Shown here: in pieces, positions 8,141 to 25,275 of the stretch
Layout of the letters: the number at the start of each line of letters is the position of its first letter
Numbering within the stretch: the first letter of the stretch is position 1
Assembly (NCBI RefSeq): GCF_000007185.1
Contig: NC_003551.1
Location: 695,456-727,455 of the forward strand
Reading direction: 5' to 3'
DNA length: 32,000 bases
DNA from: Methanopyrus kandleri AV19
Lineage (GTDB): Archaea; JAADCQ01; Methanopyri; Methanopyrales; Methanopyraceae
The notes under the pieces: generated by a model
The model's database searches: none
Told to the model about the DNA's origin: nothing
Seen by the model: the letters and a program-made list of their open reading frames with translations, nothing else
Program-made: the position numbers and the translations under genes

Positions 8141-8596
8141 TTGCTGGGAGTACCTAAGAAGTACGCCCTAGTATCCGGAACCGGCGAGGCAGATACGTCC
8201 CTAGCGGCCTTCGACGCCGCGCTGATCGATGCGGGGATAGGTGACTGCAACCTCGTGGAGCTGTCCAGCATACTTCCCCCGAACGCTGAGGAGGACGACC
8301 TTCCGGAGTTCCCACCCGGGTCCATAGTGCCGGCCGTAGTAGCGAAGGCCGTGGGACGCGGCCTGGTGTCGAGCTGCATCTGCGTAGGAAGGCTGGAGTC
8401 CGGTCTCGGGATCGTTTCGGAACGGGCCGCCACCGATAGCGTAGAAACGGTTCGGAGGCTCGCTAAAAGGGACGTCGAGGAGATGGCTAGACTCCGCGGT
8501 GAGAAGCTCGTGGAAGTGCGCACGGTCACGGCTTCTACCGAGCCCGAGGACGCGGAATGGGCGGCGGCGGTAGCGGCGGTGGTCTTCTGGGGGTGA
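8141..8596 (+). CDS. pdaD: pyruvoyl-dependent arginine decarboxylase
   Basis: SGTGEADTSLAAFDAALIDAGIGDCNLVELSSILPP. The Ser-Ser self-cleavage site and flanks match the PdaD family. TTG start. Confidence 0.9.
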   Translation: MLGVPKKYALVSGTGEADTSLAAFDAALIDAGIGDCNLVELSSILPPNAEEDDLPEFPPGSIVPAVVAKAVGRGLVSSCICVGRLESGLGIVSERAATDSVETVRRLAKRDVEEMARLRGEKLVEVRTVTASTEPEDAEWAAAVAAVVFWG

Positions 8597-8602
8597 TCTC
8601 GA

Positions 8603-9616: not shown

Positions 9617-10419
9617 CCGGCAGAACGGACCTGGGTAGAGCAGTGCGGGTCGCGGAGAGAGTGTGTCGTCTTTGCGACCGGGAAGGGTTCGAAGTCCTAG
9701 TGGACGATTCGCTGGGGATCGGCGAATACCCCCGGGTTAACTTGAAAGACATGGGCAAAGAGGTCGATATGATCATCACGATCGGCGGTGATGGGACCAT
9801 ACTCCGCGTCTCGAGGATTACGTCAGAGTATGAGGTGCCGATCTTGGGTGTGAACCTAGGAAAGTTCGGATTCCTAACCGAGGTGAGTGAGAGTGGCCTG
9901 AAGGAAGCCGTATCTCGGCTCGCTCGGGGAGATTTCAACCTAGAAGAACACCGAAAGCTCAGGATAAAGATAGGGGGATCCGACGAAGGAGACGCTCTCA
10001 ACGAGGTCACCGTGATCACGAGTCGACCTGCTAAAATGATCAGGTACCGGCTGTCCATCGACGGGTTCGAGTTGGAGACCACGTGGGCGGACGGTGTACT
10101 AGTGGCGACCCCGACGGGTTCCACCGCCTACTCCCTCTCAGCCGGAGGTCCAATCGTGGAGCCACAGGTGGAGTGTTCCATTATTACTCCTCTGAACCCG
10201 TTCAAGCTGGAGGCACGGCCTATGGTGGTTTCCATGGACCGACGCGTGGAGATCGACGTGGACGACCCTGAGCGTGCCGAGGTCGTCGTCGACGGGCAGG
10301 AGTACATGAATCTCGACGGCACGGTGTCCGTTACGCGATCCCCGAACGTGGCGCGGTTTATACGGTTCGGGTCGACGTACTTCGAGCGGTTGAAGGAAAA
10401 GTTCCTGAGGTGGGATTGA
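9589..10419 (+). CDS. nadK: NAD kinase
   Basis: IITIGGDGTILR, GVNLGKFGFL and TPTGSTAYSLSAGGPIV are the canonical NAD kinase motifs. Confidence 0.9.
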   Translation: MFRPQVVGVTGRTDLGRAVRVAERVCRLCDREGFEVLVDDSLGIGEYPRVNLKDMGKEVDMIITIGGDGTILRVSRITSEYEVPILGVNLGKFGFLTEVSESGLKEAVSRLARGDFNLEEHRKLRIKIGGSDEGDALNEVTVITSRPAKMIRYRLSIDGFELETTWADGVLVATPTGSTAYSLSAGGPIVEPQVECSIITPLNPFKLEARPMVVSMDRRVEIDVDDPERAEVVVDGQEYMNLDGTVSVTRSPNVARFIRFGSTYFERLKEKFLRWD

Positions 10420-14136: not shown

Positions 14137-15246
14137 TTACTTACCCCTTACGAGATGCGCCCATATTAGCGCCGAGAGCAACGTGAACGTAGCCAAGGCG
14201 AAGGAGTTCATCGCCCTAGAGAACAGGAATACTCCTATCAGTGATTGGACTGAGAACGCGATCAGACAACCGAAGAGCATGGCCTCTCTCGCCAGGAATC
14301 TCGCCGTCATCCTACGCCTTCGTAGTTTTATGTACTCCGAGAGGCACCTCGATCCCACGTATAGTGTGGCCGCGACCCATATGGACAGTAATACCGCCCC
14401 GATGTACCCGAAGTCGAAGGCCCAGGTGAACAAGCCAGGCAGCATGTAATCGAGAAGGTCCTTTTTAACGACGAGTGCTCCATGTAGTGTAGGTACGTCG
14501 AGCCGGAACATCATGAGATATCCGACAGGCAGTGTGACGAACCCGTCACCGAAGCCCCGCCACTCGTATCCGGCGGGAAGCGCCTTCGTGGAGTGACCGA
14601 TGATGTGCGTGTTCTTCGCCACGAACTCGAGTCCCGGTACGGTGTATTCCGCGAATCGCTTGATACGGAGTGTCGGGCTGAACACGGGCTTATTCAGGAC
14701 GTAAGCGAGCAGTTCCAGGAGACCGAGGAAACCTATGGCCATCAGCGTGGCCATCACGATCGACCTTTTGCTCATCTTAGCTGCTCGGGCGGCAAAAGCG
14801 CGGAATCTCGACTCCACTTTCAAGTACTTCGCTATGAAATGCTCCGTAAGCGCCCAGCATAGGAACCAGGAGAGTAGGAAGTCACGATGCATAATTCCTC
14901 CGACCATTCCCACGTACACCCATAGGAGATTGAAGTATGGCCGAGTACGTCGGGCCGCCGTGATACCACGGGTTTCGAGCAGTTGCAGGAGGTACCTCGA
15001 GGTCGCCCAAGCGGCGAGTGCCAGTGGGCCGAACGGGTGCGTAAACTCGTGGCGTGATACGGGGAGGAACAGCGAGAAAGCGTCCACGGTGAATAGAAGG
15101 GCCAGCACTCCCAGTGTGAAGAGGGACAGTGAGAGGACCCTCTGTACCGTTACCGAGGAATAGCTCAGGGCGAACGGTATCGTCAGGTGGGTGATCACGA
15201 AGAAGTCCAGGAGGGCTTCACCCGTGTTATAGGGGACCACGTACAA
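14137..15246 (-). CDS. polytopic membrane protein (~9 TM) with large external loop and SEDS (FtsW/RodA)-like C-terminal motif; last gene of the cell-wall operon
   Basis: Hydrophobicity pattern. An ~80-aa loop is followed by LPGLFTWAFDFGYIGAVLLSIWVAATLYVGSRCL ... RFLAREAMLFGCLIAFSVQSLIGVF. Compare the SEDS block LPExHTDFIFaviGEElGfiGa ... Rf..lla.G......Q.fiN. 1-nt gap to the upstream gene. The functional call is hypothesis. Confidence 0.55.
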   Translation of the reverse strand: MYVVPYNTGEALLDFFVITHLTIPFALSYSSVTVQRVLSLSLFTLGVLALLFTVDAFSLFLPVSRHEFTHPFGPLALAAWATSRYLLQLLETRGITAARRTRPYFNLLWVYVGMVGGIMHRDFLLSWFLCWALTEHFIAKYLKVESRFRAFAARAAKMSKRSIVMATLMAIGFLGLLELLAYVLNKPVFSPTLRIKRFAEYTVPGLEFVAKNTHIIGHSTKALPAGYEWRGFGDGFVTLPVGYLMMFRLDVPTLHGALVVKKDLLDYMLPGLFTWAFDFGYIGAVLLSIWVAATLYVGSRCLSEYIKLRRRRMTARFLAREAMLFGCLIAFSVQSLIGVFLFSRAMNSFALATFTLLSALIWAHLVRGK

Positions 15247-15247
15247 G

Positions 15248-16498
15248 TTACCACGCCCGCAGCCTCCGATTTACGAGCTCTCTGATTCCTCCGAGCACGA
15301 TCAGCGCAACTCCTACGGCGGAGCTGATTAGACCGAGGGAGTGTAGTGTCTCAGGGGAGATCGGGGTCTTCAACGGCGGCTTTTTGTACCCCTCCGGTAG
15401 CGGACGCATGTAGATAGTGATCAGGTTGGCCTCGGGTTCCACTTTGACATCACCCGGTAGTATGTAGTCGTACCCCAACAGTGTGTTGTTGTCTATGTCG
15501 GAGTCGATCGCGCGGGCGATGTCCTCCGGCTGCTTCTTCCCGGCTTGGACCAGCGTCTGGACGGTCTCGACTATCGACACTTTATCGTACACGCTCTTGA
15601 TCCCGTAGACCCGGACGATCGGCTGGTCCTTCCTTACCGTGATCATGTCTCGGGCAACCTGCCAGGCGTACTCCGTTCGGAGGGAGGACCCACAGACGGG
15701 ACACCGCGAGTACTTGGAGGCCGCCGGGTAGGCGACGCTCCATCCACATTTGGGGCAGACTTTACGGTAGGCTGTGTCCATCGGGATGCCGCGCGCGTTG
15801 AGCTTGGGCGGGACGAAAGTGTCACCCGTCGACAGACCGGCGGTGATGTTGACTACACCACCTCCGTACTTCTCTCCGGACTTCTTGGCCACGTAACCCA
15901 TGATCCTCGTCACTATCTCCGTCGCGGGTAGACCGTCCCTGATCATCCTGCCGGCCATGATGGCGGCCTCTATTCGGACCTTCGTAGCGGTGCCGTACAT
16001 AGGGTTGCCCGGCGTGTTACGCAGGTGGATTACGGCGCACTTGACGTTCTTGGGTATACGGACGATGTTAGGGCCTCCGCTGCTGTGGTACTGCTTGATG
16101 ATGATCTTGTTCCCTTTCACGATCACCACGGCGATATCGTAGCTTCCGCCCACCGCAACGCCCTTCCCGGGGCCTCCGACCAGAAGTCGGTCCGTGGGTG
16201 ACCGGCTGATACCGGCCCTCACGGCACTTTCTATGTCCTCACCCAGCTCTAACGCCCGTATACACGCCAGGATAGCCTCCAGGCGTGCCGTACCCTTGCT
16301 CAGACCTCCCGCTAGGACGGCTACGTGTAGCTTCTTGGACACTAGGAACGTCGACTGGAACATGTTAGGAGCGAAGGACATCGAGGCTGCGGCTGCACCG
16401 TTGGGATCCTTGCCGCTGGGGTCCGTGATCACGATCATGTTGAAGGTAGCGGACGCCCCGGAGACCAGTGCCAGGAGCGCGATCAGCGGGATCAGCAC
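15248..16498 (-). CDS. exported, C-terminally membrane-anchored protein: Ntn-hydrolase-like (DUF1028-type) N-domain + Cys4 zinc ribbon
   Basis: N-terminal hydrophobic leader LIPLIALLALVSGASA followed by TFNMIVITDPSG, which has the same form as MTFSIVa.DP.tG at the N-terminus of DUF1028/Ntn proteins. CPKCG-x14-CPVCG. C-terminal TM LGLISSAVGVALIVLGG plus RRLR. GTG start. Confidence 0.6.
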   Translation of the reverse strand: MLIPLIALLALVSGASATFNMIVITDPSGKDPNGAAAASMSFAPNMFQSTFLVSKKLHVAVLAGGLSKGTARLEAILACIRALELGEDIESAVRAGISRSPTDRLLVGGPGKGVAVGGSYDIAVVIVKGNKIIIKQYHSSGGPNIVRIPKNVKCAVIHLRNTPGNPMYGTATKVRIEAAIMAGRMIRDGLPATEIVTRIMGYVAKKSGEKYGGGVVNITAGLSTGDTFVPPKLNARGIPMDTAYRKVCPKCGWSVAYPAASKYSRCPVCGSSLRTEYAWQVARDMITVRKDQPIVRVYGIKSVYDKVSIVETVQTLVQAGKKQPEDIARAIDSDIDNNTLLGYDYILPGDVKVEPEANLITIYMRPLPEGYKKPPLKTPISPETLHSLGLISSAVGVALIVLGGIRELVNRRLRAW

Positions 16499-16517
16499 AC
16501 GGATCGCGGGGTCCCCC

Positions 16518-16967
16518 CTACCTCGGCAGTCCGTAGTCTTCGATCACCCGGACCACGACGACCCCTGATCGTTTGATCGTGATCTGGACGGATCGAATGG
16601 GTTTGATCTTCGTTCCCGGGATCACGCTCCTCATCGCGTATATCCTCGCCCTCCTGATCGCCTCGTGCAGCGGGATTTTCTTGCCTTCCGGGGTGATGAG
16701 GGTTCCGCCCTTGATAACCGAACCGGGACGCAGGCCCGACGCCATCACGTTGCTACGTATGACCTCTTCCGGCAGGAAATCGCAGCCGACTACGTCGATA
16801 CCTATGATCCTGAGTCCCTCTTGCTTGGGTACCGGACGTGCCGCCCACGCTGTGTACTCCGCGATTCTTCCGATGCTGAGGAGTAGAGCACCCATCAGCA
16901 TGATCGCCAGGTTACGCCGGGAAACGGGCCACGGTTTGATCCACTTCCTCTTCCTTTCCTCTTCCAC
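16518..16967 (-). CDS. bitopic membrane protein (N-in) with FtsQ/DivIB POTRA-like external domain
   Basis: Basic N-terminus EEERKRKW and TM LAIMLMGALLLSIG. Then LRIIGIDVVGCDFLPEEVIRSNV..GLRPGSVI ... IRSVQITIKRSGVVVVRVIE follows the POTRA beta-alpha-alpha-beta-beta pattern of FtsQ. 2-nt gap to the upstream Mur ligase. Confidence 0.5.
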   Translation of the reverse strand: MEEERKRKWIKPWPVSRRNLAIMLMGALLLSIGRIAEYTAWAARPVPKQEGLRIIGIDVVGCDFLPEEVIRSNVMASGLRPGSVIKGGTLITPEGKKIPLHEAIRRARIYAMRSVIPGTKIKPIRSVQITIKRSGVVVVRVIEDYGLPR

Positions 16968-16969
16968 CG

Positions 16970-18400
16970 CTAGATCGCCCCCATATCGCGCAGGACCTCT
17001 CGAGCAGGTTCCATTCCTTGGGCTCCTCCCAGTAGAATCACGGTGTCGTCGTCCGCCAAGTCCAGTGCGCGCTCCAAAGCGTCTTCTAACCGATCGTAGT
17101 GCTCGTAGTCGATGCCGGAGCGCTCCAGTTCCTCCAGGAACGCCCTCCGCTCCTCAGGCCGCACTACGTTAGCATCGTCCACGAGGCCCTCTGATGAGGT
17201 CGCGATCACGTGGACGTGGATTCCCTCGTCCTGTAGATCCTTCGCGCCTTCAGCCAGCGCCCGAGCGATTTGACGGTTAATGTCGACGCCACGCGACCCG
17301 CGGATCGCGAACACAACAATCACCTTGGAGCGACCCAACCGTCGCAGGGCGCGAACAGTGGCGAGTACTCCGTCGGGATTGTGGCAGAAATCGTCGTAAA
17401 TCAGCGGGTCGTCGCACAGGCGTTCGAACCTCCGCTTCAAGGGTTGGTACGTCCTCAAGCCTTCGGCGATATCCTCCCGATCTATTCCTAGAGCTCCCGC
17501 GGCGGCTACGGCGGCCAACGCGTTGTACAGGAAGTGGTCCACCGGTAGGGGGAACTCCCGGACGGGTATTAGGGGTTCTTCGTCCAGTACTATCCACTCC
17601 TCCCCGTCGCGTTCCTCAATGTGGGAGTATCCTTCGTCCCATCCGTACCATACCGTCTCCACACCTTCCCTGGTCATCCGCCGTACGTACCGATCGTCAC
17701 GGTTGAGCACCGCGATACCTCCCTTTCGTAGGGCCCGCACGACACCGTATACAGCGTCAACCATCTCTTCCAGAGAGGAAACCAGGTTCGTGTGGTCCAC
17801 CCCGACGTTCGTCACGACCGCCAGCTCGCATTTGAGGGCCTTCGCCATCCGGTAGGCGTGGTCCTCCATTATTCGACCCGTAGGTAAGCCTTGTACCTCA
17901 GATACCTCCACGCACAGGTAATCTTCCGGCCGTTCCTCGCGCAACTCCATCGCGACCACGGGGTCTATGAGGGTGTTCTTCTCGGAACGGAAATCCGTGT
18001 TGCAGTAAGCATCGAAGCCGGCGGTATCGAGGATGTGGTGAAGCAAGTGATTCGTAGTCGACTTACCGTTAGTTCCCGTCACGCAGATCGCGGTAGCGTC
18101 AGGGGCGCACTTCTCACGGGCTACGCGCAGAGCGTACTCGTTCGCCCGATCCACCTCCGTCAGGATCAAGGGGATTCCGAGCTCGTCGCATCTCTCGATC
18201 AGCTTGCCGCGCGGGTGTTCAGTCACCAGACATGCCACGCCTCTCTCCGACGCGATCTCGGCACCTTTATCGTCCAACCACCATCGGATCACTACATCTC
18301 CTTCTTTCGCCCTTCCTAACGTGGAGAACCATCCGGCGATCATACTATCCGGGTCGCCTGAGCGTATTTCCCCTTCCACATTCTCAGCCAGCTCCCTCAC
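16970..18400 (-). CDS. Mur-ligase family protein (MurE/MurF-like; pseudomurein peptide ligase candidate)
   Basis: P-loop VTGTNGKSTT, TNVGVDH, DDFCHNPDG and a C-terminal Mur-ligase domain (VVFAIRGSRG ... ILLGGAQG). Confidence 0.85.
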   Translation of the reverse strand: MRELAENVEGEIRSGDPDSMIAGWFSTLGRAKEGDVVIRWWLDDKGAEIASERGVACLVTEHPRGKLIERCDELGIPLILTEVDRANEYALRVAREKCAPDATAICVTGTNGKSTTNHLLHHILDTAGFDAYCNTDFRSEKNTLIDPVVAMELREERPEDYLCVEVSEVQGLPTGRIMEDHAYRMAKALKCELAVVTNVGVDHTNLVSSLEEMVDAVYGVVRALRKGGIAVLNRDDRYVRRMTREGVETVWYGWDEGYSHIEERDGEEWIVLDEEPLIPVREFPLPVDHFLYNALAAVAAAGALGIDREDIAEGLRTYQPLKRRFERLCDDPLIYDDFCHNPDGVLATVRALRRLGRSKVIVVFAIRGSRGVDINRQIARALAEGAKDLQDEGIHVHVIATSSEGLVDDANVVRPEERRAFLEELERSGIDYEHYDRLEDALERALDLADDDTVILLGGAQGMEPAREVLRDMGAI

Positions 18401-18421
18401 CGTGAGCTTCAGCAGCGCCCC

Positions 18422-19492
18422 TCACCCCACGGAGATCCAGAGTGCCACGGCGGCGAACACCGCTCCGGCGGTCCAATGGAGCGCCACAACCACGGGTTCG
18501 GGTAGGTCGTACTTGTACTGGATATGGTGGTGGAGAGGTTCCACAGCCAACCGGATCACGCCGGCTCGGTGAAGCAAGCTGATGAGCGTGGACAGTACTG
18601 GGACTCCTAAGGCGATCATAGCAGGTATCTCGATCTTGTAATATAGTGCTCCTGCCGCGTAAGCCGCCCCTAAGAAGCAACTCCCCGTGTCTCCCATGAA
18701 GATCTTAGCCGGGTATCTGTTATGGAACAGGAAACCCAGGGACGCTCCGGCAAGTGATGCGAAGAAGGCAGCACCCGGAAGCTGGCCCTGTCCCAGGCAT
18801 ACGCCGGAGCAAGCCAGTGAGGCCAGGAACAGCAGCCCGGCGGCCAGACCGTCCATCCCGTCGATGAGGTTCACGGCGTTGGTAGCGCCGACAATTCCGA
18901 ACACCGCGACCGGATAGAAAAGGTACGAGAGGTTCCAAACGCCGACCTTGGGTATCCAGAGCCATGTGGCGGGGACGATAGGAAGAACGAAGAGGGCGGC
19001 GCCAGTCTGTAGTGCGAGTTTCTCACGTTCACTCAATTCTTTCTTGATAGGCACCTCACCGACGATCTCGATGGCATCCGGGTCCTCTTCGAGTATCCTC
19101 TTCAGATCACGTTTCGCTTTCTCCGTGGCTACACGTGCCTCCTCGCCCGGTTGTAGTATGAGTCTTCCCAGCTCGATCGGTCGATTCGAGACGTTCCGTA
19201 CGACCTTCTGGAACTCTTCCACCTGCAATCCGAGCAGGTCGTCCACTATTCCTAGCACCATCATGGGGAGCGCTGAAGCTATAGGAGGGAGCGCCTGGAT
19301 GGAAGCTAGGAGGGGGCCGGACGCCGTTCCCAGTAAGATCCCCAGACCTCCCATGATGGGCATGCCGGACTTATGCGCGTGTTCCGTTACGATCGGGCGG
19401 TCTACCACGTTAGCTTCCCGCATGTACTTGCGGAGTAATCCAACCGTTACGGCCGAGGTTACTGTGGAGAGTGTAAACGTCTCGATGATCAT
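18422..19492 (-). CDS. MraY/WecA-family polyprenyl-phosphate phospho-sugar transferase (GT4)
   Basis: LGIVDDLLGL, NAVNLIDGMDGLA and FMGDTGS. There is an unusual ~75-aa charged insertion (EEFQKVVRNVSN ... KKELSEREKLA) between TM segments. Confidence 0.85.
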   Translation of the reverse strand: MIIETFTLSTVTSAVTVGLLRKYMREANVVDRPIVTEHAHKSGMPIMGGLGILLGTASGPLLASIQALPPIASALPMMVLGIVDDLLGLQVEEFQKVVRNVSNRPIELGRLILQPGEEARVATEKAKRDLKRILEEDPDAIEIVGEVPIKKELSEREKLALQTGAALFVLPIVPATWLWIPKVGVWNLSYLFYPVAVFGIVGATNAVNLIDGMDGLAAGLLFLASLACSGVCLGQGQLPGAAFFASLAGASLGFLFHNRYPAKIFMGDTGSCFLGAAYAAGALYYKIEIPAMIALGVPVLSTLISLLHRAGVIRLAVEPLHHHIQYKYDLPEPVVVALHWTAGAVFAAVALWISVG

Positions 19493-19508
19493 CGTCCGCT
19501 CCCCACGG

Positions 19509-20648
19509 TCATAAGTACTCCTCGATTTCCCTCAGCCTCCGTCGATACTCACGTTCGGCCCGCTTCACGTCCGCTCCTGCAGCCTTGAGCGCTGAGCGGA
19601 GCCTCGTGAGGGCTTCTTTAAAAGAGTCCCCCCTCACGGTGACACGACCACCTACGTCGAAGCGTCCATAGTACTCGTAGAACACGTGGTACACTCCGCC
19701 GTCGAACATCTCACGCAGGGGATCCTTGTCCGTAGGGCGCCAAACGGGACACTCGATGGCGCACCATAATTTCCTTATCTTCGGTGGCCTCCATCGATCG
19801 GCCGCCATATCGACCAGCTCACGGAGCGGCCATATTCCCGTGCATCCGGACGTCATGTACCTGGTGCCGCTGGGTCTCGGGTTGAACTCGAGGAACCAGA
19901 ACTCGTTCTCCCGGACTACCACGTCGAAGTCCACGTTGCCCTCCAGTCCCAGATGTTCCACGACTCTTACCGCGCACCTTCTTATCTTGCGCTCCACGGA
20001 CGGGTCGATCGGGGCCGGGCTCATCCGCATACGATCGATCGGATGACGACGGTCCGCCGTGGATCCTTTGAACACCGGAACCAGCGGCACCACCTCACCG
20101 TCCCAGGATAGAACTTCGATCGAAACTTCCGCACCTTCGATGAACTCCTCTACCAGCTTACGTCCCGATACTCTCGGCTTGTGCGTCTCGTGGACCGTGA
20201 CTCCGAGCCCCGCCTGTGACCGTGGATCCTTCACGACTACCGGTGGACTGATCGATGGCCTTTCGTTCTCGACGACTTCCCATTCAGGCGTCGGTACGTT
20301 CAGTTCTTCGAAGGCGCGTTTCGTTCTCACTTTATCGATCCCGATTTCAACGCTCTCGCGATCAGACGCCACAACCCGGATACCTTCGGCTTCCAGCTCT
20401 TCTTTCATCTCCCCCACTGCCGGTAGCGGATCGTCTACACCGATGAGTGGTACTACACCGTCTACGTGCCGCTCGCGGGCGATTCTCGTGGGATGTTCCA
20501 TACCGCGCGGTACGAAGTGCACCTCATCCGCCAGCTCCCAGTCCCTGCTCCTCGGGTTCGACTCGGTGAGTATACGGTACACTCCCGTGGAGCCGGCGTA
20601 CTCCGCCACGTCCCGGAGTAGCCTCGCGCCGACGAAGAGTACCTTCAC
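19509..20648 (-). CDS. ATP-grasp ligase (carbamoyl-phosphate-synthase/Ddl-like)
   Basis: Pre-ATP-grasp Rossmann MKVLFVGA, ATP-grasp body (KVRTKRAFEELNVPTP ... VVVKDPRSQAGLGV ... LVEEFIEG ... FLEFNPRPSG). 4-nt overlap with the upstream Mur ligase. Confidence 0.8.
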   Translation of the reverse strand: MKVLFVGARLLRDVAEYAGSTGVYRILTESNPRSRDWELADEVHFVPRGMEHPTRIARERHVDGVVPLIGVDDPLPAVGEMKEELEAEGIRVVASDRESVEIGIDKVRTKRAFEELNVPTPEWEVVENERPSISPPVVVKDPRSQAGLGVTVHETHKPRVSGRKLVEEFIEGAEVSIEVLSWDGEVVPLVPVFKGSTADRRHPIDRMRMSPAPIDPSVERKIRRCAVRVVEHLGLEGNVDFDVVVRENEFWFLEFNPRPSGTRYMTSGCTGIWPLRELVDMAADRWRPPKIRKLWCAIECPVWRPTDKDPLREMFDGGVYHVFYEYYGRFDVGGRVTVRGDSFKEALTRLRSALKAAGADVKRAEREYRRRLREIEEYL

Positions 20649-22183
20649 CTTTCGTCCCCCAGCACTCGCTCGACTTCTTCAGAGATCTCTTCCCGGTACT
20701 TCAGCGGAGCCTCTCCGAACAACACTACCACTTCGCAGTCCGAGCGGAGCGCCTCCTTGAGACCGTCCAACACCTGCTCCCGAGAGGCACCCAGTGTACC
20801 CTTCTTCTCGAACGGCTTGGTGGCGCTCTCCGCTGCGATCACGTTGTCGGCGTCGACGCGGTCCATGACTTCGTACGCCGCGTACGATGCCACCACCACT
20901 AGGTCGGCGAGATCCGCAGCTCTTCTGAGTATCTCTTCGTCTCCTTCCGGTCCCAGCTCCGAAGCTACGGCGATTACCGCGCAGACGCGCCGCTCCCGGT
21001 AAGCCTCCTTCACGCATCTCAACGTCGCGTCCACGCCGGCGGGATTATGGCCGTAGTCTAAGATCACGACTCGCTCGCCGTCGTCCCAGAGTACTTCTAA
21101 CCTGCCCTCGACTCCTTCGAAGGACTGTAGCGCCTCTACCACGTCCTCCACATCAAGTCCCAAGAACTCGGAGCAGACGGCTATCGCCGCGAGGGCGTTG
21201 TAAGCGTTGTGGAGCCCCATCACGGGTAGTCGAACCTCGTACTCCCCATCGGGACAGATCAGTCGGAACCCGGACAAGTCAACGTCCGTAGCTAGGTAGT
21301 CCGGCTCGGGAGATCGCAGGCCACACTCCCGGCACTTGAAGGGACCGACCCAAGGGAGGATCTCATGGACTTCAACGTGTCCGCCGCACCAGCACTCTTT
21401 TTCCGAGGTATCGAACGGTTCCACGTCCAACCCGTAGTACACGATATCGCCGTTGAAATCCACCACCTCGGGGGCACCAACTACCAACGGGTCTTGAGCG
21501 TTCAGCACGGCTAGCTCGATGGTGTCCGGCTCCAACAGTTCGGCCTCACATCTGGCGTACGTCAGGAAATCGCCCGCCTCGTTCAGATGGTCCGGGGTGA
21601 TGTTGGTAACGCAGACGCACTCCACCTGGGATAACTCCGCGGCTTCCAGGATCTCCCCTCTCTTCCCGAAAGTTGCTATCTCTAAGACGCTGACGTCCCC
21701 TGGGAGACGCGCCTGAAGTGGGGGGAGTAATCCGACGTTCCCTTGCATGCCCGGCAAACCGTGGTGCGGGGCCTCGAGCCCGAGTTGCTCGCACACGTGC
21801 CTGATCATCGCCACAGTCGTGGTCTTCCCGTTGGTCCCACCGACTCCGATCACCGGTCGTGTGGGCGGTAACATGTCGAGGAGCTCCTTCACTTCCACGA
21901 TTTCGCAGCCGTGATCCTCGGCCAGTCGGTACGGCTTAGCATCGCGTGATAGGCTCGGAGGAGGTACCACAACTTCGGCTCGTTCGAAGATCTCGGGTGG
22001 GTGGCCTCCCAATACGAGCTCCACGTTACTGTATTCGAGAAGCGTCTCGGCGAACTCGCACTCATCCCGGAGATCCGACGCGATCACATCGTATCCGCGC
22101 TCCGCGAGGACCCGGGCCGCTAGATTGCATACGGGCCCACAGACCCCGATCACGAGAACGGTCGACCAGGGAAGTTCGGCCAA
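20645..22183 (-). CDS. Mur-ligase family protein with MurC/D-like N-domain and MurT-like Cys4 zinc ribbon insertion
   Basis: N-terminal Rossmann LVIGVCGPVCNLAARVLAERGYDVIASD. P-loop GVGGTNGKTTT and TNITPDHL. Ribbon CWCGG-x17-CRECG at nt 21323-21394. DYGHNPAG. TTG start. Confidence 0.85.
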   Translation of the reverse strand: MAELPWSTVLVIGVCGPVCNLAARVLAERGYDVIASDLRDECEFAETLLEYSNVELVLGGHPPEIFERAEVVVPPPSLSRDAKPYRLAEDHGCEIVEVKELLDMLPPTRPVIGVGGTNGKTTTVAMIRHVCEQLGLEAPHHGLPGMQGNVGLLPPLQARLPGDVSVLEIATFGKRGEILEAAELSQVECVCVTNITPDHLNEAGDFLTYARCEAELLEPDTIELAVLNAQDPLVVGAPEVVDFNGDIVYYGLDVEPFDTSEKECWCGGHVEVHEILPWVGPFKCRECGLRSPEPDYLATDVDLSGFRLICPDGEYEVRLPVMGLHNAYNALAAIAVCSEFLGLDVEDVVEALQSFEGVEGRLEVLWDDGERVVILDYGHNPAGVDATLRCVKEAYRERRVCAVIAVASELGPEGDEEILRRAADLADLVVVASYAAYEVMDRVDADNVIAAESATKPFEKKGTLGASREQVLDGLKEALRSDCEVVVLFGEAPLKYREEISEEVERVLGDER

Positions 22184-22235
22184 CCGCGCACCCCGCCGAG
22201 GGGCTGGGGACGCGGTGAGTTGAACCTGTCGGGGA

Positions 22236-23240
22236 TCACGGCCGCGCTCCCGGTATCGTTCGGCCGTACTCGGCCAGTATCGACCTCATGAGCTTTTTAA
22301 CGTCGCGAAGAAGGCGTTCGGCTTCCTCCCTGTCACCGGTCGCTAACCGTACGAACGCTTCGATATCGAGGTGTTCCACCCGGTCGTCGATCTTTCCGTA
22401 CTCCGACATTACGAAGTACAGTTGCGTGAACCTCTCCCTCCGCTCGACCCTGTTGAGGGTTCCGCGTACCAGCGACCTCAGGGCTTGACGTGCGTACATG
22501 AGCAGCCGGTACGTGAGGTCTCGGATGATTTCATCCTCATCTCTCGGTCCGTCCGGGATACCGTTTGGGAACGCTGCTTTCTCTTCCAACCCCAAGATAT
22601 CCAGCACGCGTTCCGGATCCTCCTCTGGGGTCTCCGTCTCCCGGAGGTACGCTAGGGCCTCTTGAGGTGTTGCCACACCTTCCAGCATGATGGTACATGC
22701 GCGACCTGTCAGAGGGTTGTACCCGACCTCCTCTATGAACCTGTGCACGCCGTACGGACGGATCGGACACGTGTACTCGGGATTGAACCAGCCCAGACTG
22801 CTCACGATATCGCGGATGTCTTCCCACGTCCACCGACGGAGTGCCGGGTACCGGACCACGGTGACTCCTGGAGGGTAGGGGTGGGTAGTGCGTCTCCCGA
22901 ACTTCCCGCGGAGCTCGTGACCGGTGAGGACTGTTGCGCATCCTAGTTCACGGGCGCGAAGGCACGCGGCGGTTAGGACGCTTCTACCACACTTCGTACA
23001 TATCGGGCGTCCTTCCTTCAGAGCCCGCGCGAACCATTCTCGAAGTCGTAGCTTGACCACCTCGTGATCCACGCCGACGTGTTCCGCGGCTTTCCGGGCG
23101 TTCTCTAAACATGTCTTATCGGTGAACTCGTGGACTACTGTTACGGCTACCTTAACATTCCACCTATCGGCGGCGTCTATCAGCGTGGCTACACTGTCCT
23201 TACCGCCGGAAAGTGCTATGCTGGAGGGAGGGCTAGTCAT
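22236..23240 (-). CDS. PP-loop ATP pyrophosphatase (TtcA/TilS-like N-domain) with unassigned helical C-terminal half
   Basis: SGGKDS PP-loop. CTKCGRSVLTAACLRARELGCATVLTGHE resembles the CxxC...GH block of TtcA-type enzymes. The ATG overlaps the gltX stop by 8 nt. Confidence 0.7.
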   Translation of the reverse strand: MTSPPSSIALSGGKDSVATLIDAADRWNVKVAVTVVHEFTDKTCLENARKAAEHVGVDHEVVKLRLREWFARALKEGRPICTKCGRSVLTAACLRARELGCATVLTGHELRGKFGRRTTHPYPPGVTVVRYPALRRWTWEDIRDIVSSLGWFNPEYTCPIRPYGVHRFIEEVGYNPLTGRACTIMLEGVATPQEALAYLRETETPEEDPERVLDILGLEEKAAFPNGIPDGPRDEDEIIRDLTYRLLMYARQALRSLVRGTLNRVERRERFTQLYFVMSEYGKIDDRVEHLDIEAFVRLATGDREEAERLLRDVKKLMRSILAEYGRTIPGARP

Positions 23241-24948
23241 GCGCGTACACAGCCCTTACCCCACCGCTGGAGACCTCTTCGAGTCGCACGAAGTACAGCC
23301 GTTCGAACTGGACGGTGCTGCCGGCCTGTTCGCGCTCGACGTTAATTTCGGCGTATCCACTCTCAACGCTACCGTCCGGGCGGACGACCTCGCACCGTAC
23401 TGCCTGGTCGGGCGGTACCCAGTGGACGATTTGAGCACCTTCCTCTTTCGCGATTCGGTAGTCGTCGCTGTGATACCTGCCTCGCAACCATCCGTCTCCG
23501 ACTTCCTCGATCTCGACGTTGACGGCGTTCATCAGCCGAACTACGTCGCCCTCCCACAGGTCTTCTGCGTCTTCACCGTCCAACAGTGCTCGGGCCACGC
23601 CGTTCTCAGGATGTAGAATTAAGACCCTCTCTCCCTCATCCCGATCGGGGTGTAGAGGCAGTCGGGCCAGGACCGACTCCTTCATCCCTTCGATCCGTAA
23701 TTCGACAGGATCACGGACGAAGAAGTACCGGTGAGACTCAGGGTCGATCATCTTACGGTTCCGAGCGTAAAGATGCTCCCAGCTGAACGTCGCGTCCACG
23801 TCGGTCAGGCCGATCTCGAGGATAGTCTCACGTATTGCTTCCGGCTTAATACCCCGGCGTCGGAGGGCGCGTAAGGTAGCCACTCGGACGTCGTCCCACC
23901 CTGTGTACTCTCCTGAATCGATTCCACGGCGGATCTCGGAAGTGCTTAGCACGGCACCTTCAACCTTCAGAATCCCGTAGTGAACGTATTCCGGAGTGTC
24001 CCACCCCAGATGCTCGAACACGTACTTCTGACGCCGTGTGTTGGACTCATGATCCTTCCCACGAAGTACGTGCGTGATGTTCATGAGATGGTCGTCCACA
24101 GCGACGGCGAAGTTCATCGTCGGCCACACAAGGTACCGAGAACCCGTCATCGGGTGCTCTTCTTCGACGATCCTGAACGCTATCCACTCCCTCACCGCGG
24201 GATCCGGGTGATCAACTTCGGTCTTGACACGTACGACGGCTTCTCCTTCTGAGAAAGTACCGTCCAACATCTCCTCCCAGAGCTCGAGGTTCTCCTCCTT
24301 ATCCCGAGAGCGGCACGGGCAGGCTCGCCCCACGTCGCGGAGTCTCCGGAACTCGTCTGGATCACAGGTACAAACGTACGCCCCTTCCCGCTCCAGCAGC
24401 TCCTCGCAAACCATGTAATACAGTTCTATCCTGTTAGACTGCACGTACCGTTCGTCGATGTTGACTCCGAGCCACTCCAGATCCTCTTCGATCATGTCGT
24501 AGGCCTCAGGGTCCACGCGACGCGGGTCGGTGTCTTCAATGCGGAGGACTAAGGTGCCGTCGTACCTTCTAGCGTATTCGTCGTTAAGTACTGCGGCACG
24601 GGCGTGACCTATGTGGAGGGGACCCGAAGGGTTCGGTGCGAACCGAAGGCGAACGTTCCCCGGTTCAGCTCCGGGAAGGGGTTTGAGCCCTTCTTTGTCC
24701 CGGGCTACGTCTTCGCGCGGTCCTCCGAGTTCTTCCAGCTCGCGTCTGATTTCCTCTCCGGACATCTTGTTAACTTCGCGGACCACCTCTCTGACGGTCT
24801 TCAGGACTTCTTTCGCCCTAGGACGTAGCTCTTCGTGTTCCTTCATGATCTTCTTCATCACCGCGTTGGGATTCGCCCTCCCACCGTATCGGGCCGCGTT
24901 CTCCAGAGCGTACCTGCGGACGAGATCTCGAAGTTCCTTCTCCTCCAC
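23233..24948 (-). CDS. gltX: glutamyl-tRNA synthetase (archaeal type)
   Basis: FAPNPSGPLHIGHARAA (HIGH), class I catalytic core and an archaeal/eukaryal-type anticodon-binding C-terminus. GTG start with GGAG 8 nt upstream. Confidence 0.95.
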   Translation of the reverse strand: MEEKELRDLVRRYALENAARYGGRANPNAVMKKIMKEHEELRPRAKEVLKTVREVVREVNKMSGEEIRRELEELGGPREDVARDKEGLKPLPGAEPGNVRLRFAPNPSGPLHIGHARAAVLNDEYARRYDGTLVLRIEDTDPRRVDPEAYDMIEEDLEWLGVNIDERYVQSNRIELYYMVCEELLEREGAYVCTCDPDEFRRLRDVGRACPCRSRDKEENLELWEEMLDGTFSEGEAVVRVKTEVDHPDPAVREWIAFRIVEEEHPMTGSRYLVWPTMNFAVAVDDHLMNITHVLRGKDHESNTRRQKYVFEHLGWDTPEYVHYGILKVEGAVLSTSEIRRGIDSGEYTGWDDVRVATLRALRRRGIKPEAIRETILEIGLTDVDATFSWEHLYARNRKMIDPESHRYFFVRDPVELRIEGMKESVLARLPLHPDRDEGERVLILHPENGVARALLDGEDAEDLWEGDVVRLMNAVNVEIEEVGDGWLRGRYHSDDYRIAKEEGAQIVHWVPPDQAVRCEVVRPDGSVESGYAEINVEREQAGSTVQFERLYFVRLEEVSSGGVRAVYAHD

Positions 24949-25197: not shown

Positions 25198-25275
25198 GGG
25201 CCGGCAGCTCAGTCTGGCTAGAGCGCGGGACTTTTAATCCCGTGGTCCCGGGTTCAAATCCCGGCCGGCCCACCA
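25198..25275 (+). tRNA. tRNA-Lys (anticodon UUU), genomically encoded CCA, C at position 8
   Basis: Hand-folded cloverleaf: acceptor GGGCCGG/CCGGCCC, D arm GCTC-AGTCTGGCTA-GAGC, anticodon arm CGGGA-CTTTTAA-TCCCG, variable TGGTC, T arm CCGGG-TTCAAAT-CCCGG, discriminator A, CCA. Confidence 0.9.

What the first reader, a model, noticed from the sequence alone, without database searches (positions are those of the whole stretch)
14137..23240. dcw-like cell-wall gene cluster in an archaeon: pseudomurein ligase module extended by three unassigned envelope proteins
Eight co-directional minus-strand genes, nine with gltX, are separated by -8 to +52 nt. In transcription order they are:

- PP-loop ATPase;
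- Mur ligase with a MurC/D-like N-domain and MurT-like ribbon;
- ATP-grasp (Ddl/CPS-like) ligase;
- MraY/WecA-type transferase;
- Mur ligase (MurE/F-like);
- FtsQ/POTRA-like bitopic protein;
- exported Ntn-hydrolase-like protein;
- SEDS-like polytopic protein.

Archaeal Mur-ligase and MraY homologues are the recognised hallmark of pseudomurein-forming methanogens. As far as I recall, comparative work has tied them to peptide-stem synthesis. Seen directly here, the order and content parallel the bacterial dcw cluster (mur ligases, mraY, ddl, ftsQ, ftsW). The three distal genes supply candidates for the uncharacterised export, polymerisation and cross-linking steps. No MurG-like glycosyltransferase or PBP-like gene is in the run.
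Basis: partly seen in the sequence, partly recalled or inferred. Interest (0 to 1): 0.8.

Follow-up and report, generated by a model that had tools for sequence, protein, structure and literature searches.

The report
Known pseudomurein cell-wall gene cluster
This is the already published pseudomurein (archaeal cell-wall) synthesis gene cluster of Methanopyrus kandleri. The only new result is that its three unnamed envelope proteins get recognisable predicted folds, which turns the unknown outside-the-membrane steps of wall assembly into testable hypotheses.

Summary
Nine co-directional minus-strand genes (gltX plus eight more) sit at 14137-24948 with spacings of -8 to +52 nt, in Methanopyrus kandleri AV19.

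The core is not new. pMurC, ATP-grasp, MraY-like, pMurE, Mfer763 and Mfer764 form 'cluster 2' of Subedi 2021 and 'cluster A' of Lupo 2025. All six have NCBIfam models, and five score above cutoff. Lupo 2025 already noted the last polytopic gene just downstream in Methanopyrus KOL6.

- **Mfer764:** the model has an Ntn-hydrolase sandwich. The best PDB matches are circularly permuted Taspase1 (E 8e-6). An invariant Thr18 directly follows an AxA signal-peptidase site.
- **Mfer763:** its profile hits only BamA POTRA domains in the PDB (E 2.8e-4).
- **Polytopic protein:** its best PDB matches are FtsW and then WaaL, but weakly (TM 0.47). There is no sequence-level link.

Two parts of the eight-gene module fail the phyletic or synteny test:
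- The PP-loop gene occurs only in the Methanopyrus lineage and in Thermococcales relatives.
- The polytopic gene is linked to the cluster only in Methanopyrales.

Verdict: a known system, with modestly new and testable functional hypotheses for three orphan proteins.

The parts
23233..24948 (-). gltX, archaeal glutamate--tRNA ligase. It is the first gene of the co-directional run and is probably not a cell-wall gene.
   Evidence: NF003169 791 bits and TIGR00463 677 bits. It overlaps the next gene by 8 nt. The gltX-PP-loop adjacency is kept in three other Methanopyrales-type genomes, L001-L003.
22236..23240 (-). PP-loop ATPase (334 aa; SGGKDS motif at residues 11-16; CxxC motif). It is lineage-specific and probably belongs with gltX and tRNA metabolism rather than with the wall.
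   Evidence: Weak N-terminal hits to QueC, LarE, TtuA, TtcA and MnmA models. Close homologues occur only in the Methanopyrus lineage. The next relatives are Thermococcales DUF7411 proteins at 31-34% identity. It is absent from 77 Methanobacteriales cluster loci.
20645..22183 (-). pMurC, a pseudomurein peptide ligase (Mur ligase with a MurD-like N-domain and a Cys-rich ribbon insert).
   Evidence: NF053645 641 bits, above the 560 cutoff; Mur_ligase_M and Mur_ligase_C domains. PMC12996149 reports that PMurC adds Ala or Thr to UDP-Glu.
19509..20648 (-). ATP-grasp enzyme (the 'Ddl_archaea' / small CPS-like family).
   Evidence: NF053643 E 4e-95 over its full length, but 319 bits is below the 500 cutoff. 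ATP-grasp_3 E 2e-17. It is conserved upstream of MraY-like in most loci.
18422..19492 (-). MraY-like phosphotransferase (pseudomurein type).
   Evidence: NF053644 452 bits against a 450 cutoff; Glycos_transf_4 E 3e-33.
16970..18400 (-). pMurE, a pseudomurein peptide ligase.
   Evidence: NF053648 603 bits against a 600 cutoff. PMC12996149 reports that PMurE adds Lys.
16518..16967 (-). Mfer763-family protein (149 aa). It has an N-terminal hydrophobic anchor or signal peptide, followed by a POTRA-like ectodomain of about 105 aa.
   Evidence: NF053641 171.5 bits against a 170 cutoff. The family profile hits only BamA POTRA domains in the PDB (E 2.8e-4 to 1). Pfam POTRA or POTRA_1 hits appear in 4 and 2 of 26 members, all below threshold. 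It is always directly upstream of Mfer764.
15248..16498 (-). Mfer764-family protein (416 aa). Parts in order: signal peptide, Ntn-hydrolase-like domain starting at Thr18, Cys/Asp ribbon, alpha/beta domain, C-terminal TM anchor.
   Evidence: NF053642 571 bits against a 560 cutoff. AF2 pLDDT 84.7, with strand 1 starting at residue 18. The top 8 Foldseek PDB matches are circularly permuted Taspase1, E 8e-6 to 1.6e-4. Thr18 is present in 60 of 60 sequences and preceded by A/S-A. Relatives were found in 223 species genomes. The 80 listed carry Methanobacteriales- or Methanopyrales-type titles, apart from one 'Methanomicrobiales' label and two generic 'archaeon' labels.
14137..15246 (-). Polytopic membrane protein (369 aa; Lupo's OG0000796). 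It is an orphan family with a SEDS/WaaL-like predicted fold.
   Evidence: No Pfam or NCBIfam hit in any of 59 members. AF2 pLDDT 80.6, pTM 0.84. Top Foldseek PDB matches are FtsW 8p1u_A (prob 1.0, TM 0.47, E 8.5e-3), FtsW 8bh1_A and WaaL 7tpg_B; everything else has prob below 0.2. An exhaustive profile search found only 62 hits and 3 full-length clusters. The invariant polar residues D55, E67, H70, H120, E178, H218, K262, D263, D266, D278, Q334 and R344 lie on the predicted outer face; E321 is the exception, in a K/R-rich cytoplasmic loop.
25198..25275 (+). tRNA-Lys(UUU). It marks the upstream boundary of the possible transcription unit.
   Evidence: ARAGORN; Rfam tRNA 67.9 bits.

Best explanation
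**Shown**
- The region is the Methanopyrus version of the published pseudomurein biosynthesis cluster: pMurC, ATP-grasp, MraY-like, pMurE, Mfer763, Mfer764.
- In Methanopyrales only, a pseudomurein-archaea-specific polytopic membrane gene is appended at the 3' end, and a lineage-specific PP-loop gene plus gltX sit at the 5' end.

**From the literature**
- pMurC and pMurE extend the UDP-Glu-linked stem peptide with Ala/Thr and Lys.
- The MraY-like enzyme is thought to move the precursor onto the lipid carrier.

**Inferred here from predicted folds and conservation**
- The three distal proteins act outside the membrane.
- Mfer764 is a membrane-anchored Ntn-type enzyme. Its catalytic Thr becomes the mature N-terminus through signal-peptidase cleavage. 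It would form an acyl-enzyme on the stem peptide, giving either cross-linking transpeptidation with release of the terminal Ala, or hydrolysis.
- The polytopic protein is a SEDS/WaaL/Wzy-type enzyme acting on the lipid-pyrophosphate-linked precursor at the outer face. It is the best candidate for the glycan polymerase.
- Mfer763 is a small POTRA-like partner or scaffold of Mfer764.
- The PP-loop gene is most likely not a wall gene.
For: - **Identity of the cluster:** exact protein matches to M. kandleri. NCBIfam pseudomurein models score above cutoff for five genes. The literature describes the same genes.
- **Synteny:** 3 Methanopyrales-type genomes keep all nine genes. In the 77 Methanobacteriales loci the C-D-E-(ligase)-F-G core is kept wherever enough upstream sequence is present, apart from about ten Methanobrevibacter loci that carry only F-G.
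- **Distribution:** Mfer764 relatives were found in 223 species genomes. The 80 listed are Methanobacteriales or Methanopyrales types.
- **Mfer764:** pLDDT 84.7; the secondary-structure order is 4 strands, 2 helices, 6 strands, 2 helices, 1 strand. Foldseek gives E 8e-6 to circularly permuted Taspase1, with further hits to the Ntn proteins Anbu and EgtC. Thr18 is invariant after an AxA site.
- **Polytopic protein:** FtsW, FtsW and WaaL are the only PDB matches with high probability. A large outer loop (185-270) is followed by three TM helices. An invariant KDxxDYMLPG motif sits just before the next helix. The only hhalign pairing with SEDS puts its AFDFGYIG on the SEDS EELGYVG motif. UniRef labels some family members 'Oligosaccharide repeat unit polymerase'.
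- **Mfer763:** PDB profile hits are exclusively POTRA domains.
- **PP-loop gene:** distribution. It overlaps gltX by 8 nt and lies near tRNA-Lys(UUU).
Against: - All three fold assignments rest on AlphaFold models or weak profile matches.
- No sequence-level link to SEDS (hhalign prob below 1%; no Pfam hit).
- No sequence-level link to type-2 asparaginases (shuffle z at most 1.6).
- The FtsW match has TM below 0.5 and E above 1e-3.
- I count 9 rather than 10 TM helices, with the N-terminus outside.
- PP2C phosphatases, another alpha-beta-beta-alpha sandwich, also match Mfer764 at E 4e-3 and above.
- In Methanobacteriales the polytopic gene sits next to 2-oxoacid:ferredoxin oxidoreductase or DUF1890/DUF1894 genes, not wall genes.
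- The literature favours exported transglutaminases as the cross-linking enzyme (PMC11915815).
- Co-transcription is inferred only from spacing and from the absence of oligo-T runs or AT-rich boxes at the junctions.
Confidence: 0.75

Rival explanations
1. All eight genes, or nine with gltX, form one dedicated pseudomurein operon. The PP-loop ATPase would perform a wall-specific step such as amidation or another ATP-dependent modification of the stem peptide or sugar.
For: The spacing is tight (-8 to +52 nt) and the junctions lack oligo-T runs or AT-rich boxes. The nine-gene order is conserved in three other Methanopyrales-type genomes. There is a weak hit to the WbuX N-acetyl-sugar amidotransferase model, E 1.3e-4.
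Against: The PP-loop gene has no detectable homologue in Methanobacteriales. Its nearest outside relatives are in Thermococcales, which lack pseudomurein. It is never near the cluster in 77 Methanobacteriales loci. Its best model hits are tRNA or cofactor sulfur-transfer and QueC-type enzymes. It overlaps gltX and lies near tRNA-Lys(UUU), which fits a tRNA-related role.
Confidence: 0.15
2. Mfer764 is a pseudomurein hydrolase, not the cross-linking transpeptidase. It could be an autolysin, a remodelling amidase or a carboxypeptidase that trims the terminal Ala. It could also process another envelope protein.
For: Most Ntn hydrolases, including the best structural match Taspase1 and the type-2 asparaginases, are hydrolases (established knowledge). 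The literature proposes exported transglutaminases for cross-linking.
Against: It is strictly co-located with the biosynthetic ligase/MraY genes in nearly every genome. It is membrane-anchored. Some Ntn enzymes, such as gamma-glutamyltranspeptidase, naturally transfer acyl groups to amines (established knowledge).
Confidence: 0.35
3. The polytopic protein is not a glycan polymerase. It could be a flippase or transporter, a WaaL-like ligase that attaches another polymer or protein to the wall, or a membrane metallohydrolase, as the original genome annotation suggested from its HEFTH motif.
For: - The structural match to FtsW is marginal, and WaaL also matches.
- E67 and H70 are invariant, and His/Asp/Glu residues cluster on the outer face.
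- It is not linked to wall genes in Methanobacteriales.
- I count 9 TM helices rather than 10.
Against: The first His of HExxH is replaced in 16 of 59 members. No protease or transporter fold appears among the credible matches; MFS and ABC hits have prob at most 0.16 and TM at most 0.2. Invariant basic and acidic residues on the outer face suit a lipid-pyrophosphate substrate.
Confidence: 0.3
4. The three distal proteins have nothing to do with pseudomurein. They would be general envelope proteins that merely happen to be confined to these two orders.
For: There are no experimental data for any of them. Lupo 2025 lists other clade-specific clusters that are probably unrelated to the wall.
Against: Mfer763-Mfer764 lie directly downstream of pMurE or pMurC across the two orders. 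Their folds are those used in bacterial wall assembly or peptide-bond chemistry. All three are predicted to be extracytoplasmic.
Confidence: 0.1

Closest known systems
Pseudomurein biosynthesis 'Gene Cluster 2' (Subedi et al. 2021, PMC10117817) = 'cluster A' (Lupo et al. 2025, PMC11915815)
   Same: The genes and their order match: ATP-grasp, MraY-like, pMurE, Mfer763, Mfer764, with pMurC attached in some species. Lupo already reports the polytopic PM-specific gene (OG0000796) just downstream in Methanopyrus sp. KOL6.
   Different: Nothing structural differs. This window is the M. kandleri AV19 copy. Added here are fold-level assignments for the three proteins those papers leave as 'unknown function', and evidence that the adjacent PP-loop gene is not part of the conserved set.
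Bacterial dcw (division and cell wall) cluster, e.g. E. coli mraZ-ftsZ
   Same: The content overlaps: Mur ligases, an MraY-family transferase, a Ddl-like ATP-grasp enzyme, and possibly an FtsQ-like (POTRA) and an FtsW-like (SEDS fold) protein. The murC-ddl adjacency is shared.
   Different: The order differs. There is no mraZ, rsmH, ftsL, ftsI/PBP, murG, murF, ftsA or ftsZ. Published trees do not place the archaeal ATP-grasp or MraY-like genes with Ddl or MraY. The FtsQ and FtsW resemblance is at fold or weak-profile level only.
SEDS polymerases (FtsW/RodA) and the related WaaL/Wzy lipid-PP-glycan transferases
   Same: These are the top structural matches. The protein is of similar size (about 360-370 aa). 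It has a large outer loop followed by three TM helices. Invariant acidic residues sit just before that helix.
   Different: No Pfam FTSW_RODA_SPOVE match, and none of the SEDS signature motifs (QPSE..K, QPDLG, LP..SYGGSS). About 9 TM helices are predicted. There is a His-rich outer face (E67, H70, H120, H218). The family is confined to pseudomurein archaea.
Ntn hydrolases of the Taspase1 / type-2 asparaginase kind (also proteasome-like Anbu)
   Same: Both have a four-layer alpha-beta-beta-alpha sandwich with a Thr at the first residue of strand 1 of the mature chain. The strand order matches the engineered beta-then-alpha (circularly permuted) Taspase1.
   Different: There is no detectable sequence similarity. 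The nucleophile would be unmasked by signal peptidase rather than by autoproteolysis. Extra elements are a Cys/Asp ribbon, an alpha/beta domain and a C-terminal membrane anchor. The protein is extracytoplasmic.
POTRA domains (BamA repeats; FtsQ/DivIB POTRA)
   Same: The profile matches start at the typical POTRA strand-helix element (I.G..VkGN..vp...i). The domain sits outside the membrane after an N-terminal hydrophobic segment, as in FtsQ.
   Different: There is a single domain of about 105 aa, with no FtsQ beta-domain. The scores are below Pfam thresholds. The N-terminal segment may be a cleaved signal peptide. The protein is archaeal.

Membership tests
Pseudomurein cluster 2/A (Subedi 2021; Lupo 2025) | ATP-grasp, MraY-like, pMurE, Mfer763 and Mfer764 are adjacent and co-directional. 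| tested here: met
   The same order holds in most of the 80 related loci; about ten Methanobrevibacter loci carry only Mfer763-Mfer764.
Pseudomurein cluster 2/A (Subedi 2021; Lupo 2025) | Each protein reaches the curated NCBIfam equivalog cutoff. | tested here: met
   pMurC 641/560, MraY_archaea 452/450, pMurE 603/600, Mfer763 171.5/170 and Mfer764 571/560 are met. The ATP-grasp model scores 319/500, below cutoff, although E is 4e-95 over its full length.
Pseudomurein cluster 2/A (Subedi 2021; Lupo 2025) | Restricted to Methanobacteriales and Methanopyrales. | tested here: met
   Mfer764 relatives occur in 223 species genomes. The 80 listed carry titles of these lineages, apart from one submitter label 'Methanomicrobiales' on a locus with a Methanobacterium-type cluster and two generic 'archaeon' labels. 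The scan was pattern-based, so divergent relatives elsewhere could be missed.
Bacterial dcw cluster | Conserved order mraZ-rsmH-ftsL-ftsI-murE-murF-mraY-murD-ftsW-murG-murC-ddl-ftsQ-ftsA-ftsZ, including a PBP and MurG. | tested here: not met
   E. coli order, compared with the window order. No PBP, MurG, FtsA or FtsZ is in the run. Only the murC-ddl adjacency is shared.
SEDS (FtsW/RodA/SpoVE, PF01098) | Sequence match to the family model or signature motifs. | tested here: not met
   No Pfam or NCBIfam hit in 59 members. hhalign against FtsW or a 4-sequence SEDS alignment gives prob below 1%. The profile search of 1.84 billion representatives found no outside relatives.
SEDS (FtsW/RodA/SpoVE, PF01098) | Same fold as solved SEDS structures. 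| tested here: inconclusive
SEDS (FtsW/RodA/SpoVE, PF01098) | Ten TM helices, N-terminus inside, a large extracellular loop between TM7 and TM8, and a catalytic Asp at the end of that loop. | tested here: inconclusive
   The large outer loop 185-270, three following TM helices and invariant D263/D266/D278 at the loop-helix junction all fit. Only six hydrophobic helices precede the loop, giving 9 TM with the N-terminus outside by K+R distribution.
SEDS (FtsW/RodA/SpoVE, PF01098) | Polymerises a lipid-PP-linked disaccharide-peptide. | not testable with these tools
   This needs a biochemical assay.
Ntn hydrolase superfamily | Four-layer alpha-beta-beta-alpha sandwich. | tested here: met
   AF2 model with pLDDT 84.7 and the expected secondary-structure order. 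Foldseek gives E 8e-6 to 1.6e-4 to eight circularly permuted Taspase1 chains, plus Anbu and EgtC. PP2C, a different fold with the same layering, also matches at E 4e-3 and above.
Ntn hydrolase superfamily | Thr, Ser or Cys nucleophile as the first residue of the mature chain, at the start of a beta-strand. | tested here: met
   Thr18 is present in 60 of 60 sequences. It is preceded by a signal peptide ending in A/S-A, and strand 1 starts at residue 18 in the model. Cleavage itself is predicted, not shown.
Type-2 asparaginase / Taspase family (PF01112) | Sequence similarity and the catalytic Thr-Arg-Asp-Thr-Gly set. | tested here: not met
   No Pfam hit. hhalign against E. coli IaaA gives prob below 1%. 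Smith-Waterman scores are not above shuffles.
POTRA domain (PF07244 / PF08478) | Profile-level match to POTRA. | tested here: inconclusive
   All five PDB profile hits are BamA POTRA domains: best E 2.8e-4 (domain 0.004), others 0.13 to 1. Pfam POTRA hits 4 of 26 members (best 0.011) and POTRA_1 hits 2 of 26 (best 0.065), all below gathering scores.
POTRA domain (PF07244 / PF08478) | Beta-alpha-alpha-beta-beta fold. | not tested
FtsQ/DivIB family | Bitopic protein with a POTRA domain plus a C-terminal beta-domain (about 200 aa outside the membrane). | tested here: not met
   The ectodomain is only about 105 aa. hhalign to E. coli FtsQ covers the POTRA region only, at prob 0.25%. The N-terminal segment may be a cleavable signal peptide.
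PP-loop ATPase superfamily | SGGxDS PP-loop motif at the N-terminus. | tested here: met
   SGGKDS at residues 11-16. N-terminal hits to QueC, LarE and TtuA models.

The most novel reading that the evidence does not exclude
Mfer763, Mfer764 and the polytopic protein would together form the missing extracytoplasmic pseudomurein synthase. This would be an archaeal counterpart of the bacterial FtsQ / class-B PBP / SEDS machine.

- The polytopic protein polymerises the lipid-PP-linked disaccharide-peptide.
- Mfer764 cross-links stems through a Thr-acyl-enzyme. Its nucleophile is unmasked by signal peptidase, which makes it a natural 'circularly permuted' Ntn enzyme replacing the penicillin-binding fold.
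- Mfer763 is a POTRA scaffold.

In the strongest form, the POTRA and SEDS-like genes descend from ftsQ and ftsW, carried into the archaeal ancestor together with the mur ligases on a dcw fragment.
Probability: 0.2. Interest if true: 0.85.

Novelty: already known. Interest (0 to 1): 0.4.

Why it matters
How pseudomurein is exported, polymerised and cross-linked has been open since the precursor work of the 1980s-90s. The recent literature still lists these three proteins as 'unknown function'.

The fold-level readings give each protein a concrete test:
- the mature N-terminal Thr and acyl-enzyme chemistry for Mfer764;
- a lipid-linked glycan polymerase assay and Asp mutants for the polytopic protein;
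- partner binding for Mfer763.

If confirmed, they would identify anti-methanogen targets (rumen and gut Methanobrevibacter). They would also bear on whether murein and pseudomurein assembly share ancestry beyond the cytoplasmic ligases. The gene cluster itself is not a discovery.

Tried and rejected
1. **Mfer764 and type-2 asparaginases at sequence level.** By eye, motifs such as HLRNT/HLRNP and DPNGAAAAS/DGNLAAATS looked promising. hhalign against E. coli IaaA gave prob below 1%. Smith-Waterman scores were not above shuffles, z at most 1.6. I rejected this as evidence of homology; only the fold argument stands.
2. **The polytopic protein and SEDS at sequence level.** hhalign against FtsW and against a 4-sequence SEDS alignment gave prob below 1%. 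Profile searches of the PDB, Pfam and NCBIfam gave nothing relevant. The exhaustive profile search of 1.84 billion representatives found no bridging relatives.
4. **PDB profile search for Mfer764.** This returned only chance hits.
5. **HExxH metalloprotease reading of the polytopic protein.** The first His varies in 16 of 59 members, and no protease fold matched.
6. **PP2C reading of Mfer764.** The matches are weaker than to Taspase1, and no PP2C metal motifs were seen by eye.
7. **Context of the polytopic gene in Methanobacteriales.** I looked for wall genes beside it. The neighbours were oxidoreductase or DUF1890/DUF1894 genes instead.
8. **Promoter and terminator inspection.** No oligo-T runs or AT-rich boxes occur at the junctions. 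This is compatible with one transcript but is not evidence for it.

Full report
**What is there**

The window is high-GC (about 0.6). All six proteins looked up in the finding are exact matches to Methanopyrus kandleri proteins (AAM01963-AAM01970 and RefSeq re-annotations).

The ORF list shows nine co-directional minus-strand genes from 24948 down to 14137.

The run cannot extend further upstream as one transcript. A plus-strand tRNA-Lys(UUU) at 25198-25275 lies between argS and gltX. Downstream, the last gene ends 4 nt from a convergent DUF555 gene.

**What the genes are**

NCBIfam gave the following (gltX):

| Gene (minus strand) | Assignment | Score |
|---|---|---|
| 23233-24948 | archaeal gltX | 791 bits |
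| 20645-22183 | pMurC | 641, cutoff 560 |
| 19509-20648 | 'putative pseudomurein biosynthesis ATP-grasp protein' | E 4e-95, full length, 319 bits, below the 500 cutoff |
| 18422-19492 | pseudomurein MraY-family transferase | 452, cutoff 450 |
| 16970-18400 | pMurE | 603, cutoff 600 |
| 16518-16967 | Mfer763 family | 171.5, cutoff 170 |
| 15248-16498 | Mfer764 family | 571, cutoff 560 |

- The gene at 22236-23240 has an N-terminal PP-loop (SGGKDS). It gives only weak hits to QueC, LarE, TtuA and WbuX-type models.
- The last gene (14137-15246) has no hit in Pfam or NCBIfam. Neither do any of 58 relatives.

**It is a published system**

- Subedi et al. 2021 (PMC10117817) define 'Gene Cluster 2' as Ddl/CarB-like, MraY, pMurE, Mfer763 and Mfer764, with pMurC or pMurD1 sometimes attached. 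They describe the last two as highly conserved transmembrane-domain proteins of unknown function.
- Lupo et al. 2025 (PMC11915815) call this cluster A. They add a polytopic, pseudomurein-specific protein (OG0000796) 'located just downstream ... in the genome of Methanopyrus sp. KOL6'. That is the last gene here.
- A 2026 paper (PMC12996149) reports that PMurC adds Ala/Thr and PMurE adds Lys to the UDP-Glu-linked stem.

So the cluster, its taxonomic restriction and its three 'unassigned envelope proteins' are all on record.

A scan of one genome per GTDB species with the Mfer764 alignment found relatives in 223 genomes. The 80 best loci carry Methanobacteriales- or Methanopyrales-type titles. 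One carries a submitter label 'Methanomicrobiales' but has a Methanobacterium-type cluster, and two carry only a generic 'archaeon' label.

I mapped the nine window proteins onto these loci:
- Three Methanopyrales-type genomes (65-83% identity) keep the entire gltX-to-polytopic order.
- The 77 Methanobacteriales loci keep ATP-grasp, MraY-like, pMurE, (extra ligases), Mfer763 and Mfer764 wherever enough upstream sequence is present.
- None of the 77 has the PP-loop gene or the polytopic gene within 10 kb.
- About ten Methanobrevibacter loci have only the Mfer763-Mfer764 pair, which is therefore the invariant unit.

The polytopic protein does have full-length homologues (35-40% identity) in Methanobacterium, Methanothermobacter and Methanothermus. 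There it sits next to 2-oxoacid:ferredoxin oxidoreductase genes or in a small operon with DUF1890/DUF1894.

An exhaustive profile search of 1.84 billion representative proteins found only 62 hits, three of them full-length clusters, and nothing outside the family.

The PP-loop protein has close homologues only in the Methanopyrus lineage. Its next relatives (31-34% identity) are Thermococcales DUF7411 proteins. It fails the phyletic test for a pseudomurein gene. Three features fit a tRNA-related role better (inference):
- its 8-nt overlap with gltX;
- the nearby tRNA-Lys(UUU);
- its resemblance to tRNA-thiolation PP-loop enzymes.

**Mfer764 (exported, 'Ntn-like')**

With a 61-sequence alignment, AlphaFold gave pLDDT 84.7. 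Residues 18-217 form four strands, two helices, six strands, two helices and one strand. A Cys/Asp ribbon follows, then an alpha/beta domain and a C-terminal TM helix with a basic tail.

In the Foldseek search against the PDB:
- The eight best hits are all circularly permuted human Taspase1 (E 8e-6 to 1.6e-4, prob 1.0).
- Next come PP2C phosphatases (E 4e-3 and above), a different fold with the same layering.
- The Ntn proteins Anbu and EgtC also appear.

The permuted Taspase1 constructs start with the catalytic Thr. In the family alignment, Thr18 is present in 60 of 60 sequences, with Asn20 equally conserved. It directly follows a signal peptide ending in A/S-A. In the model it is the first residue of strand 1.

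The defining Ntn features (sandwich plus N-terminal nucleophile) are therefore met by prediction. The unusual twist is that signal peptidase, not autoproteolysis, would unmask the nucleophile.

Sequence-level kinship to type-2 asparaginases is not supported.

**The polytopic protein ('SEDS-like')**

AlphaFold gave pLDDT 80.6 and pTM 0.84. In the Foldseek PDB search:
- FtsW 8p1u_A: prob 1.0, TM 0.47, E 8.5e-3.
- FtsW 8bh1_A: prob 0.99.
- WaaL 7tpg_B: prob 0.92.
- All other hits have prob at most 0.16 and TM at most 0.2.

The family's invariant polar residues (D55, E67, H70, H120, E178, H218, K262, D263, D266, D278, Q334, R344) lie on the face opposite the K/R-rich loops, which is the outer face. 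The one exception, E321, sits in a K/R-rich cytoplasmic loop. A 58-85-residue outer loop (from about 185 or 213 to 270, depending on whether the amphipathic helix 191-212 is counted) is followed by three TM helices. An invariant KDxxDYMLPG motif sits at the loop-helix junction. This layout recalls SEDS proteins, whose catalytic Asp ends extracellular loop 4 before TM8.

The only hhalign pairing with SEDS puts AFDFGYIG on the SEDS EELGYVG motif. It is far from significant.

Several points count against calling it a SEDS member:
- I count nine TM helices, not ten, with the N-terminus outside.
- None of the SEDS signature motifs is present.
- Of the HEFTH motif that led the genome authors to 'possible membrane metallohydrolase', the first His varies.

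UniRef labels some members 'Oligosaccharide repeat unit polymerase', so a Wzy-type reading already exists as an automatic label.

My conclusion is that it works like a SEDS/WaaL/Wzy-type lipid-PP-glycan transferase with moderate probability. Membership of SEDS is not established.

**Mfer763 ('FtsQ/POTRA-like')**

A 26-sequence profile searched against all PDB sequences returned five hits, all BamA POTRA domains: best E 2.8e-4, the others 0.13 to 1. The matches start at the conserved I-x-G-I-I-V-K-G-N-D-I-V-P element.

- Pfam POTRA and FtsQ-type POTRA_1 appear sub-threshold in 4 and 2 of 26 members.
- hhalign to E. coli FtsQ aligns the ectodomain to the FtsQ POTRA region, without significance.
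- The ectodomain is only about 105 aa, so it is not an FtsQ-family protein.
- Its N-terminal hydrophobic segment ends in a conserved A-x-A. It may be cleaved, making the protein secreted rather than bitopic.

**How it most likely works**

*Shown:* the gene identities, the spacing, the conservation pattern and the predicted folds.

*From the literature:* the cytoplasmic ligation steps and the lipid-carrier transfer.

*Inferred:*
- After flipping, the lipid-PP-linked disaccharide-peptide is polymerised at the outer face by the polytopic SEDS/WaaL-like protein.
- Mfer764 attacks the stem peptide with its N-terminal Thr. It either transfers the acyl group to an amine of a neighbouring stem (cross-linking with loss of the terminal Ala) or hydrolyses it.
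- Mfer763 partners Mfer764.

The main rivals are:
- Mfer764 as a hydrolase.
- The polytopic protein as a ligase, transporter or metallohydrolase.
- Exported transglutaminases as the true cross-linkers, as Lupo et al. suggest.

**Comparison with the dcw cluster**

The E. coli order is mraZ-rsmH-ftsL-ftsI-murE-murF-mraY-murD-ftsW-murG-murC-ddlB-ftsQ-ftsA-ftsZ. It shares content with this run but not order; only the murC-ddl adjacency matches. [quoted passage not shown] 'dcw-like' is therefore a loose analogy.

**Novelty**

Full-text searches found no paper linking pseudomurein to SEDS, POTRA or Ntn folds for these proteins. The 2022 preprint used AlphaFold only on the ligases.

The fold readings seem new but are modest. 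They rest on predictions that anyone can reproduce from public models. The system as a whole is already known.

Noticed in passing
window 25198-25275 (+): A tRNA-Lys(UUU) gene on the opposite strand sits between argS and gltX, with an AT-rich box (ATCTATATAGAAATTT) about 25 nt upstream of it. It breaks the longer co-directional run aRF1-argS-gltX. Together with gltX it flanks the PP-loop gene. This hints that the PP-loop protein may act on tRNA, for example U34 thiolation of Glu/Lys/Gln tRNAs.
   Followed up: partly
window 30026-30565 (-) and 30587-31441 (-): A TIGR00288 NYN-domain gene sits next to a 284-aa ORF with no family hit, in a stretch where GC drops to 0.49. This may be Lupo et al.'s pseudomurein-archaea-specific 'cluster D' (NYN ribonuclease plus nucleotide cyclase), about 7 kb from the wall cluster. 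The second ORF was not identified.
   Followed up: partly
L004-L080, directly downstream of the Mfer764 gene (e.g. L004:11247-11618): In 59 of the 65 loci examined (all 59 Methanobacteriales), a co-directional DUF356 gene follows Mfer764 by about 50-100 nt in most loci. An MBF1-like HTH gene and the proteasome-activating nucleotidase PAN come next. Methanopyrus has the polytopic gene in this position instead.
   Followed up: partly
L085/L086 13492-16583 (Methanobacterium sp. CWC-01): One paralogue group of the polytopic gene lies about 4.4 kb from a sortase / DUF515-RcpC-like gene group. This is Lupo et al.'s clade-specific 'cluster C', which they set aside as pilus- or surface-related. In bacteria, sortases attach proteins to wall precursors.
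   Followed up: no
L083, L087, L088 around 8001-9850; proteins P0089/P0342 and P0246/P0322: The polytopic family splits into at least two groups in Methanobacteriales. Methanothermobacter tenebrarum carries one of each (BDH79006.1 and BDH79231.1). One group forms a tight operon with DUF1890 and DUF1894, and in two genomes it follows a DUF354 gene. Two paralogues in a rod-shaped organism recall RodA/FtsW, but this was not examined.
   Followed up: partly
window 15248-16498 (-), protein residues 248-269: The ribbon in the exported Mfer764 protein has C248 and C266 invariant. C251 is Asp in 12 of 61 relatives and C269 is Asp in 27 of 61. A metal-binding ribbon in an extracytoplasmic domain is unusual, and its role is unknown.
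   Followed up: no
L023, L027, L037, L048, L049, L052, L055, L063, L066: In a subset of Methanobrevibacter genomes, the Mfer763-Mfer764 pair stands alone. No ATP-grasp, MraY-like or pMurE gene lies in the available upstream sequence (about 6-9.5 kb). Here Mfer763 carries a C-terminal extension of about 20 aa.
   Followed up: no
window 16573-17172, 18948-19514, 20059-20760 (+): Long plus-strand ORFs (188-233 aa) lie antisense to the cluster genes. They have low-complexity Ser/Pro/Arg-rich translations and are typical shadow ORFs of GC-rich DNA, not genes.
   Followed up: no
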